Source: Candidatus Poribacteria bacterium
Lineage (GTDB): Bacteria > Poribacteria > WGA-4E > GCA-2687025
Length of the DNA: 64,000 nt
Reading direction: 5' to 3'
NCBI GenBank assembly: GCA_963665845.2
Contig: OY762492.1
Location: 2,240,001-2,304,000, forward strand
Below are positions 10,925 through 12,358 of this stretch, piece by piece. Positions within the stretch are counted from its first letter, which is position 1; every line of letters starts with the position of its first letter. The position numbers were made by a program, and so were the translations under genes. The notes beneath the pieces were generated by a model. It did not search any database and was not told the DNA's origin. It saw only the letters and a list, made by a program, of their open reading frames with translations.

Positions 10925-12358
10925 TTAAACAGGAAAGAGCGACGCGCCTCCGCCGCCCGACACAAACCGCGCCAAACCCGACGACGACAACCCAACGGTC
11001 AACGCCAGCGCGAGCGAATCGCCGTAGTCGGGGCTGCGCCCTAGACGCTTCCGCATCTCATCCTTGCTCTCCAGCTTGATCTGACCCTTCGACGAGTAGG
11101 CGTACCGCGCCGCCGTCAGGTCTTCCATCAGCCGCCCATGCCGCGGAACCGCGCCGCCGTTTCGCACCCATTCGCGCATTGTCCACCACATCTCGGCGCG
11201 CTTGTTTAAAAAACGAGCCTTGTCGAGAGCCGAGCTGCCCGCGTTCACCGCCGCGACCGGAACGCCCAACTCCCGCAGCCGATCCACCACGCCCCCGCCG
11301 ACCCCGATGTCGTCCACCGCGATGCGCTGAATTCCCAGATCGCTCTTCAAACGGGCGGCGCGCCCGGCGATTTCCATCGCGCTTCGCCCCCGCTCCTCTT
11401 CTATGCGCTCCACCCGATTTTCCGACGCCAGCGTGTAAACGGTCGCGTCCGATCCGTAGCGCGCCACATCGACGCCCATGCGCAGCGCGCTGTCCGCCTC
11501 CGCCGCTCCCGCCTCATAACGCTCCACCGCCTGCTCAACCCACTCCAGCGATATGAGCTGGTCGCTGGAAAGCTGCGGAAAGTAGCCCATCACTTTCGAC
11601 ATATATTCAGGGGAATCTTCGCCCCATTCGCGCGCCTTCTCCTCCACCCAGACAGGCGCGACGAGGCGCGACTTCAGCTCCTCCGAGACCGCCTCGTTCG
11701 TGAAATTCGGCGAGTCTAGACAGCCCATCCGCAGCACATTCCAAGCGTCCGAACGGCATGCGTCGTAAAAATGCCCCTGCCGTTCGGTCGGATTTCCGAT
11801 CATCAACATATGGGCGTCGCCCGCGCTCATGAGCGAATCGGCGCCCAGATACACCTCCCGCCGGACGCCCGGCGCCTCATCGATGACGACCAGCACATGT
11901 TTTTGGTGAAAGCCTTGAAAACGAACCCGATCCGCCGGCGAGATGCCGAGCGCGAACCAGTCGTCCTGTATCTGCAGGCGCGTTTGAGAGGCGGAGCCTG
12001 GGTAGTCCGCGGGCGCGAGCCTGTCCTTGTAGAGCGCGTTGATCTCGCTCCACAACAGCTGGCGCACCTGCGTCCATGTCGGCGCGGTGGTGATCACCTT
12101 GGAGGGTTGCCGCAGATACAGGAACGCCAGCGACGCCGCCGCCGACACAAACGTTTTGCCGACGCCATGCCCCGCCGGCACCGCCGTTCGGCGGTTTGAA
12201 AACACGGAGCGCAGCACCTCTTTTTGCCGACTCCACAGCTCCAGATTCATCGCCTCCGCCGCCCAGGACGCCGGGTCGTTTAACCATCGTTTGAGATTTT
12301 CGGGACCCGATCCTTTGCGTCCGGCATCGAAACATTTCAGATTCAGCTCCGTTGTCAT
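10925..12358 (-). CDS. terL: Phage large terminase subunit, stand-alone
   Basis: Walker A AGHGVGKT, Walker B VVIDEA, coupling motif GNPT, nuclease GVDVARYGSD...SPDYGDSLAL. Strong RBS AAGGAGGAGG. Confidence 0.93.
   Translation of the reverse strand: MTTELNLKCFDAGRKGSGPENLKRWLNDPASWAAEAMNLELWSRQKEVLRSVFSNRRTAVPAGHGVGKTFVSAAASLAFLYLRQPSKVITTAPTWTQVRQLLWSEINALYKDRLAPADYPGSASQTRLQIQDDWFALGISPADRVRFQGFHQKHVLVVIDEAPGVRREVYLGADSLMSAGDAHMLMIGNPTERQGHFYDACRSDAWNVLRMGCLDSPNFTNEAVSEELKSRLVAPVWVEEKAREWGEDSPEYMSKVMGYFPQLSSDQLISLEWVEQAVERYEAGAAEADSALRMGVDVARYGSDATVYTLASENRVERIEEERGRSAMEIAGRAARLKSDLGIQRIAVDDIGVGGGVVDRLRELGVPVAAVNAGSSALDKARFLNKRAEMWWTMREWVRNGGAVPRHGRLMEDLTAARYAYSSKGQIKLESKDEMRKRLGRSPDYGDSLALALTVGLSSSGLARFVSGGGGASLFPV

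What the first reader, a model, noticed from the sequence alone, without database searches (positions are those of the whole stretch)
10925..12358. Orphan large terminase about 14.7 kb from the head module, with no small terminase
Seen: a full-length TerL with all ATPase and nuclease motifs and a very strong RBS. It lies on the opposite strand, between an oxidoreductase gene and host repeats, and serS and two tRNAs separate it from the portal gene. No TerS-like ORF precedes it. Established: TerS confers pac/cos specificity, and relaxed specificity is what allows GTAs to package random host DNA. Inference: this is the packaging motor for the 27-32.8 kb module, now under separate control.
Basis: partly seen in the sequence, partly recalled or inferred. 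Interest (0 to 1): 0.78.

Follow-up and report, generated by a model that had tools for sequence, protein, structure and literature searches.

The report
Displaced motor of domesticated phage particle
This intact phage DNA-packaging gene has been separated from a set of capsid genes that these bacteria (Candidatus Poribacteria) keep under selection like their own genes, so it likely powers an undescribed particle predicted to fill protein shells with host DNA.

Summary
In detail: 10925-12358 (-) is an intact large terminase, 14.7 kb from a Mu-type head-neck operon, with no small-terminase gene upstream. It is that operon's own motor. In two other genera of the same Ca. Poribacteria family terL lies directly before the portal gene, and both parts occur only in this family. 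Against a sister species, terL and the head genes have host-like dS (0.26 versus 0.25) and dN/dS mostly 0.05-0.16; no integrase is near. The split is an ordinary by-product of a genome shuffled about every 7 kb, and the distance is not conserved (at least 62 kb in the sister species). TerS loss predates the split, and known GTAs keep a truncated TerS, so 'no TerS, hence GTA' is not established. This genus also lacks the endolysin, tape measure and tail tip found in relatives. Best reading: a host-domesticated, GTA-like DNA-packaging particle of independent origin (about 0.6); particles, cargo and transfer are untested. Brachyspira's GTA is a precedent for a detached terL. The scan noted similar split systems in other phyla, none in Poribacteria.

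The parts
10925..12358 (-). Large terminase (TerL), ATPase plus nuclease, intact; cognate motor of the head operon
   Evidence: phrog_2 E 6e-40; invariant catalytic residues; fold like Sf6 gp2; dN/dS 0.105, CI 0.063-0.163 versus G001
12359..12444 (-). terL leader conserved with G001 (RBS and likely promoter)
   Evidence: blastn block starts at 12444; alignment; no sigma-70 consensus on this strand; promoter function inferred
26966..27059 (+). Head-operon leader conserved with G001 (likely promoter, hairpin)
   Evidence: function inferred
27060..28343 (+). Portal protein, Mu gp29 type (alternative start 27042)
   Evidence: PF06074 E 2e-51, phrog_113; solved portals; dN/dS 0.081
28340..29275 (+). 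Mu I-type prohead protease/scaffold
   Evidence: PF10123, phrog_328; dN/dS 0.148
29328..29723 (+). Capsid cement/decoration protein
   Evidence: PF09956 E 1e-7; dN/dS 0.31, CI 0.12-0.73
29760..30698 (+). Major capsid protein
   Evidence: phrog_1005 E 1e-92, PF03864; dN/dS 0.082
31047..31451 (+). Head-tail adaptor, Mu gp36-like
   Evidence: weak PF07030 (below cut-off) and phrog_195, E 8e-5; dN/dS 0.16
31452..31970 (+). Tail terminator (predicted lambda gpU fold)
   Evidence: AlphaFold model pLDDT 71.6; Foldseek top hits are terminators of R4C, lambda and T5, E about 1e-4; dN/dS 0.046
31995..32465 (+). Single tail-tube protein (one of three paralogues in G002/G003)
   Evidence: phrog_1407 E 1e-6; alignment; dN/dS 0.43, CI 0.23-0.77
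32503..32781 (+). Small coiled-coil protein with C-terminal membrane helix, possibly lysis-related
   Evidence: phrog_5225 E 8e-8, unknown function; hydropathy; kept in G001, G002, G003, L120; lysis role inferred

Best explanation
The gene is the intact DNA-packaging motor of an old phage-derived head-and-neck gene set that this Poribacteria genus inherits and keeps under purifying selection, a rearrangement having split it from the portal gene; together they likely build GTA-like particles predicted to package host DNA by a headful mechanism without a small terminase. Shown: intact TerL, ancestral adjacency to this portal, host-like dS with low dN/dS, no integrase near the module, no TerS at the locus, no endolysin, tape-measure, distal-tail or hub homologue found in G000 (hub, distal tail and endolysin also not in G001). 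Inferred: co-induction of the two sites, procapsid assembly (portal, protease, capsid, cement), TerL cutting chromosomal DNA at little-specified sites and filling heads, closure by a Mu-type adaptor plus terminator with a short tube stub, release helped by the small membrane protein and host hydrolases, and delivery of the DNA to other cells.
For: Contiguity terL-portal-protease-cement-capsid in G002 and terL-portal-protease-cement in G004. Close homologues only in family f1: TerL in 4 of 61 genomes, capsid in 5 of 176 phylum genomes, one a distant 31% hit, close portal in all 5 genomes of genera g1-g4. G000 versus G001: terL dS 0.258, nine module rows median dS 0.258, 72 host rows median 0.250; all nine module genes have bootstrap CIs for dN/dS below 1, nuclease half 0.085, against serS 0.198 and serA 0.194. 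Same flanks (serS-tRNA and serA; gfo-comF) in both species. All 15 members of the 90% TerL cluster are 475-479 aa, with Walker motifs intact in the 13 printed. Only two tyrosine recombinases in G000, both over 0.4 Mb away; no duplicated tRNA 3' end. In G002 the whole element lies between ppdK and an rlmL-like gene with no integrase, replication or TerS gene. Cross-genus module identity (TerL 62%, portal 58-62%, capsid 71%) is at or above host-gene medians of 47-54%. Host and head quartets agree. Precedent: Brachyspira GTA has a single conserved terL outside its cluster (PMC9662315 section 8).
Against: No particle, packaged DNA, expression or transfer was observed. Without tape measure, distal tail and hub a normal DNA-injecting tail cannot be built, so delivery is unexplained. 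RcGTA needs its TerS for packaging, so a TerS-free motor would be unusual; a diverged TerS elsewhere cannot be excluded (PHROGs recognised only 24 of 69 ORFs picked upstream of related terL genes; G000 is 90% and G001 91% complete). The insertion site is not shared between genera. Genus g5, nested among carriers in the rpoB tree, lacks the set in 3 of 3 genomes. Quartet support is modest (head 74, TerL 59), rests on four taxa, and pairs the two longest branches. dN/dS rests on one species pair. Headful packaging is inferred only from similarity to Sf6.
Confidence: 0.6

Rival explanations
1. Domesticated, but not for gene transfer: the heads are made and filled by TerL but serve as DNA export, decoys, interference with incoming phage assembly, or programmed lysis.
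For: The same selection data; loss of tail tip and endolysin in this genus removes the usual delivery route.
Against: Neck and tube genes are kept (terminator dN/dS 0.046), which a pure shell would not obviously need; relatives keep a full tail set.
Confidence: 0.2
2. A decaying cryptic prophage of a family-specific temperate phage that integrated separately in each genus; the low dN/dS is left over from phage life.
For: Different flanks in each genus; L120, L040 and L128 keep a TerS-like gene and/or endolysin; stepwise gene loss looks like decay; g5 lacks it.
Against: Same site and host-like dS in two species with dN/dS below serS, and the split must predate their divergence, so selection acted after the element could no longer excise; 15 of 15 cluster members full length; no early genes beside any fully flanked copy; the two close capsid hits in the viral collection are L120 and a contig the same length as G003's.
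Confidence: 0.1
3. A tail-borrowing head, like cf-PICI satellites: it makes DNA-filled heads that pick up tails from co-infecting phages.
For: Head and neck kept, tail tip lost; cf-PICIs release tail-less capsids that join free phage tails (bioRxiv 10.1101/2025.02.11.637232, abstract).
Against: No integrase or replication genes; the element is split and cannot package itself as a unit; it keeps its own terminator and tube gene, which are tail-side parts.
Confidence: 0.06
4. The detached TerL now has its own cellular job (for example as a nuclease) and no longer serves the head.
For: It is transcribed in the same direction as gfo and comF in both species; a moonlighting terminase is reported in Salmonella (PMC11610961, search listing and start of abstract only).
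Against: Both domains are conserved at the same level as portal and capsid, and it is the only full-length TerL in the genome.
Confidence: 0.04

Closest known systems
Brachyspira hyodysenteriae GTA (BhGTA / VSH-1)
   Same: Single-copy, highly conserved terL located outside the structural cluster; genus-wide retention; no synteny between species (PMC9662315 section 8, read in full).
   Different: BhGTA particles, 7.5-kb cargo and transfer are shown experimentally and it has a 65-nm tail and an endolysin; here nothing is shown experimentally, the genus lacks endolysin and tail tip, and the genes are Mu-type. Homology to BhGTA proteins was not tested.
RcGTA and relatives (Rhodogtaviriformidae)
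   Same: Packaging plus structural genes only, endogenised, often multi-locus (PMC11841831 passages); TerL of likely headful ancestry (PMC7947584 passages).
   Different: RcGTA has terS directly before terL, essential and lacking the DNA-binding domain (PMC6854486 passages); here no TerS at the locus. RcGTA keeps a complete short tail tip (recalled). Head genes here fall in Mu-type families.
Mu-like phage head and connector (portal gp29, protease I, adaptor gp36, terminator gp37)
   Same: Same family assignments and order; Mu's connector has no stopper (PMC11915804 passages), so portal, adaptor and terminator would make a complete neck.
   Different: No transposase, sheath or baseplate; the tail in relatives is siphophage-like; TerL is closest in fold to Sf6 gp2.
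Capsid-forming PICIs
   Same: Head and neck without a working tail (abstract).
   Different: cf-PICIs are excisable, self-packaging satellites with integrase, replication and terminase genes (gene content recalled); this set is split and fixed.

Membership tests
Large terminase (TerL) | N-terminal packaging ATPase with Walker A, Walker B and coupling motif | tested here: met
Large terminase (TerL) | C-terminal RNase H-like nuclease with conserved acidic residues | tested here: met
   D297, D349, D444, D447 invariant in 25 rows; aligns to E217 and Sf6 nuclease domains
Headful-packaging TerL class | Groups with TerLs of experimentally known headful phages | tested here: inconclusive
   Best structural and profile matches are Sf6 gp2 and E217 (Sf6 headful is recalled) at only 18-23% identity; the tree held no reference phages of known strategy
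Gene transfer agent (criteria of PMC9662315) | Caudoviricete-derived proteins | tested here: met
   (similarity; particles not imaged)
Gene transfer agent (criteria of PMC9662315) | Fully endogenised, often across several loci | tested here: met
   Two loci among host genes, no integrase or att-like repeat
Gene transfer agent (criteria of PMC9662315) | Mostly vertical inheritance and co-diversification with the host | tested here: inconclusive
   Met within the genus (same site, host-like dS); across genera only a four-taxon quartet, different flanks and absence in g5
Gene transfer agent (criteria of PMC9662315) | Encapsidates mostly random host DNA | not testable with these tools
   Needs sequencing of particle DNA
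Gene transfer agent (criteria of PMC9662315) | Cannot package its whole genome | not testable with these tools
   Head size unknown; the loci span 22 kb here and at least 62 kb apart in G001
Gene transfer agent (criteria of PMC9662315) | Delivers DNA to other cells | not testable with these tools
   Tail-tip genes not found in this genus
RcGTA-type GTA | Short TerS gene directly upstream of terL | tested here: not met
   None in G000, G001, G002 or G004
RcGTA-type GTA | Proteins group with RcGTA homologues | not tested
   No RcGTA sequences were compared; family hits are Mu-type
Inducible prophage | Contiguous genome with integrase or transposase, att sites, replication and lysis genes | tested here: not met
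cf-PICI satellite | Excisable island with integrase, replication genes and terminase subunits | tested here: not met

The most novel reading that the evidence does not exclude
A minimal gene transfer agent in Poribacteria that needs neither a small terminase nor a tail tip: TerL alone fills stub-tailed heads with random host DNA, and recipients take it up through their competence machinery (terL is co-directional with comF two genes downstream in both species, and an ATPase-only TerL paralogue sits two genes from comEC). The family would preserve the steps of reduction: TerS plus lysin plus tail, then tail only, then head and neck only.
Probability: 0.2. Interest if true: 0.85.

Novelty: new variant of a known kind. 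Interest (0 to 1): 0.58.

Why it matters
No GTA-like system in Poribacteria turned up in the library searches, and the GTA classification paper does not mention the phylum. If the particles carry host DNA, this is another independent domestication of a phage, from a Mu-type head, in an uncultured phylum best known as sponge symbionts. It would also test two open questions directly: whether a terminase can start packaging in vivo with no TerS, and whether a GTA can work without a tail tip. The relatives form a graded series for studying how a prophage is pared down. The separation of terL itself is ordinary here and has a published precedent.

Tried and rejected
TerS elsewhere in the genome: not found with the L120 TerS-like protein, phrog_51 (0 of 5 genomes) or 17 phage TerS queries; phrog_4102 and one query gave only a weak 91-aa HTH ORF at C1:3600705 (E 4e-4 to 4e-3), which precedes a restriction-helicase-like gene and has no orthologue in G001, so it was rejected. 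A homologue search with the L120 ORF returned only itself; its TerS label rests on position, size, an Atlas match to unnamed viral clusters and weak similarity (E 0.5) to ORFs before other terL genes. Other virion genes in G000: blastp against 8,179 ORFs from related loci gave 267 hits; the 18 candidates scanned were host genes or the HTH above; the rest were judged from their targets, not scanned. Shared regulation: a 10-mer with one variable base lies before both terL and portal and occurs 10 times in contig C1, but 8% of 1,500 random upstream pairs match as well in register and 18% anywhere. A DnaA-box-like 9-mer before the portal is not conserved in G001. Single-inversion origin: orientation fits, but 0 of 5 gfo loci in other genera have a tRNA within 1.5 kb, so it is unconfirmed. 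Expression: no RNA holder listed. Contigs of one study cover terL and the head operon without differences at depths like their neighbours; they may be the source sample and cannot rank genes. The capsid frameshift in G002 is probably an assembly error, since ppdK and dnaK there are also split. One search timed out; its profile searches were repeated. Paper supplements were not opened; the TerL lists in the supplements of PMC7947584 could bear on packaging class and on prior mention of these sequences.

Full report
Observation. The ORF at 10925-12358 on the minus strand encodes 477 aa and matches the PHROG large-terminase family phrog_2 at E 6e-40. In an alignment of 25 close homologues the Walker B pair D160/E161, G188-N189-P190 and the nuclease acids D297, D349, D444 and D447 are invariant and Walker A G67-K68-T69 nearly so (motif names from general knowledge). 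The predicted structure (pLDDT 84.5) is closest to Sf6 gp2 (E 9e-21), then T4 gp17. It is the only full-length TerL in the 3.98-Mb genome. An oxidoreductase follows it, REP-like palindromes precede it, and serS with tRNA-Asp and tRNA-Val separate it from the portal 14.7 kb away. No TerS-like ORF precedes it. Its GC and GC3 (0.63, 0.77) equal those of serS (0.63, 0.76).

The head operon. From 27060 to 32781 lie a Mu-type portal, Mu I-type protease, cement, major capsid protein, gp36-like adaptor, a 172-aa protein that folds like a tail terminator, one tail-tube gene and a small coiled-coil membrane protein. Mu's connector consists of portal, adaptor and terminator with no stopper (PMC11915804, passages), so the neck would be complete.

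Host and distribution. The closest named TerL homologues are from Ca. Poribacteria. TerL was found in 4 of 61 related genomes, all in family f1, and in 4 of 8 family genomes with a profile. The capsid was found in 5 of 176 phylum genomes, again only f1, one being a distant 31% hit in G007. A close portal (58-100%) is in all five genomes of genera g1-g4 and in none of three g5 genomes. G003 lacks a TerL hit, but its 2.3-kb portal contig begins inside the endolysin gene, so the gene probably falls in an assembly gap. In a 101-row TerL tree, a 28-row clade (SH-aLRT 99) holds this protein, its 90% cluster, the G002 and G004 proteins and those of L120 and L040; one other Poribacteria-named protein (P0045, 47%) falls outside it (rows were the query, the top 59 hits, cluster members and 25 hand-picked loci). 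Among 1.84 billion representatives the capsid has one cluster at 71%, the next at 51% and 45%. A 75% TerL and a 73% terminator are both recorded on a 194,428-bp contig, probably the same one.

The ancestral arrangement. In G002 terL ends about 90 nt before the portal match and is followed by protease, cement, capsid, a fibre-like gene, adaptor, terminator, three tube paralogues, a chaperone pair, and genes placed like tape measure, distal tail and hub (these three labels inferred from position; no family hit), then the small membrane protein; ppdK lies upstream and an rlmL-like gene downstream. G003 has the same tail set, followed by toxin-antitoxin-like and hydrolase genes. In G004 terL runs into the portal across a contig break, with ankyrin genes upstream. 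Neither G002 nor G004 has a TerS or endolysin at the locus. L120 (TerL 63%) reads TerS-like ORF, terL, M15 endolysin, portal, protease, cement, capsid, with only an IS-like fragment and one opposite-strand gene upstream; L040 and L128 also have terL then endolysin. So terL belongs to this head, TerS and lysin were lost in some lineages while terL was still beside the portal, and the split and the loss of the distal tail are specific to genus g1: the hub, distal-tail and endolysin queries found nothing in G000 or G001, and no tail-tip, chaperone, fibre or tape-measure profile hit in G000 reached E 0.001.

Why it is split. G000 and G001 differ by 17 synteny breaks in 120 kb examined, one per 7 kb, and contig C1 carries about 800 copies of one palindromic repeat (1,614 matches counting both strands). 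In G001 the blocks terL-gfo-comF and WD40-serS-tRNA-head-serA are both intact but on different contigs, at least 62 kb apart (45 kb plus 17 kb to the nearest contig ends). The break therefore predates the two species and 14.7 kb is not conserved. Closeness and orientation here fit the relic of one local inversion, but the check in other genera gave no support. tRNA-Val-tRNA-Asp-serS is an old host unit and no tRNA end is duplicated.

Selection. By Nei-Gojobori counting in my own script, G000 versus G001 gives terL dN 0.027, dS 0.258, ratio 0.105 (codon bootstrap 0.063-0.163); ATPase half 0.090, nuclease half 0.085; portal 0.081, capsid 0.082, terminator 0.046, protease 0.148, adaptor 0.160, membrane protein 0.148, cement 0.31, tube 0.43; serS 0.198, serA 0.194, gfo 0.121, comF 0.260. 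Median dS is 0.258 for nine module rows and 0.250 for 72 other ORF pairs, a set that includes a few shadow frames. Equal dS at the same site means vertical descent, and because the element was already split the selection cannot come from a replicating phage. All 15 members of the 90% cluster are 475-479 aa. G000 and G001 each have two tyrosine recombinases, in G000 far from both sites.

Across genera the case is weaker. Module identities are at or above host medians (49.8%, n=31, for G002; 53.6%, n=19, for G003; 47.4%, n=6, for G004). Concatenated ppdK-gyrB-dnaK gives (g1,G002)|(G003,G004) at bootstrap 100 and portal-protease-cement the same split at 74; TerL and head agree on (g1,G002)|(G004,L120) at 59 and 96. 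These are four-taxon tests, and g1 and G002 have the longest module branches. Flanks differ between genera, though G002's ppdK has also lost the upstream neighbour kept in g1, G003 and G005. In rpoB, g5 is sister to g1, so vertical descent requires a loss in g5.

TerS does set specificity in phages, but RcGTA has an essential TerS lacking the DNA-binding domain, predicted also in other GTAs, and TerS is not strictly needed for translocation in vitro (PMC6854486, passages; PMC11841831, passages). PHROGs recognised a TerS in only 24 of 69 ORFs that I picked upstream of related terL genes, so failing to find one by homology is weak; the positional absence in four genomes is the stronger evidence. 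Separate control is plausible, since each site has its own conserved leader, but is not shown.

Mechanism. Most likely (0.6) the host co-induces both sites, builds proheads, and TerL cuts and packages chromosomal DNA with little sequence preference until the head is full; adaptor and terminator close it, with a short tube stub. That TerL is the module's motor I put at about 0.95 and host domestication at about 0.85; the cargo and its delivery are the uncertain steps, because this genus lacks a tail tip and endolysin. Bartonella GTA particles were first reported tailless or short-tailed (PMC9662315, passage), so this is not disqualifying.

Comparison and novelty. It works like a GTA by architecture and meets two of six GTA criteria here, one inconclusively, three untestable (criteria from PMC9662315, passages). 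The detached single terL parallels BhGTA (section 8). Searches for Poribacteria with 'gene transfer agent' (4 papers) and 'terminase' (6 papers), and three broader ones, showed nothing on this element in listings; one paper checked by passage only notes that viral sequences were detected in Poribacteria genomes (PMC4533152). The library lacks most subscription journals. Earlier notes of this scan describe similar split or tailless sets in Planctomycetota, Armatimonadota and gut Alphaproteobacteria (unchecked, homology not tested); none matched this TerL by sequence. Verdict: a real, undescribed, GTA-like domesticated element in which the orphan terL is one displaced part; new variant of a known kind; interest 0.58.

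Noticed in passing
G000:C1:2862647-2863450 (L015:17648-18451): A stand-alone TerL ATPase domain (267 aa, 29% to the main TerL, phrog_5902) with Walker A kept, Walker B glutamate replaced by asparagine and no nuclease half, two genes from comEC; not found in G001-G004. Relic or regulatory decoy.
   Followed up: partly
whole genome; window 10781-10915, 12457-12609, 25953-26939, 30751-30990, 32807-32977: Extreme genome shuffling between two close species (one break per 7 kb at dS 0.25) with about 800 copies of one REP-like palindrome and several other hairpin repeat families, including three 301-bp tandem units before the portal.
   Followed up: partly
window 8888-12358: terL, the oxidoreductase and a comF-like gene are co-directional and kept together in G001; comF and comEC homologues are needed by RcGTA recipients (recalled). 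May be chance in a shuffled genome.
   Followed up: no
window 13118-15991, 24499-25881, 41876-43285 and dozens of sites genome-wide: Very many DNA methyltransferase and restriction-modification genes, including methylase-Mrr and methylase-HNH fusions; reads suggest near-identical paralogues at 24.7-25.9 kb.
   Followed up: no
G000:C1:3600705-3600980 (L347:1706-1981): 91-aa HTH protein with weak TerS profile hits before a restriction-helicase-like gene; G000 only.
   Followed up: yes
window 12736-13035 and 41390-41761: Small coiled-coil proteins with internal repeats; the first has a C-terminal hydrophobic stretch like the module's last gene and a 69% paralogue at C1:3525408.
   Followed up: no
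L012:4788-6527 and L032:3667-5414: Three tail-tube paralogues in a row in G002 and G003, one with a long N-terminal insertion; the tape-measure-position genes are short and poorly conserved (407 and 266 aa).
   Followed up: partly
L259 (viral collection) and G003:C141: A 9,956-bp contig listed as viral has the length and genes of the G003 module contig, so 'viral' labels for this element may be host DNA.
   Followed up: partly
window 18897-20324: Protein with beta/gamma-crystallin repeats fused to a concanavalin-like domain.
   Followed up: no
window 3337-5597: DUF7380/DUF4209 protein followed by a PemK/MazF-like toxin gene with no antitoxin ORF of 80 aa or more apparent.
   Followed up: no
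L013:15-2177 (G004): ECF sigma factor fused to ankyrin repeats upstream of terL.
   Followed up: no
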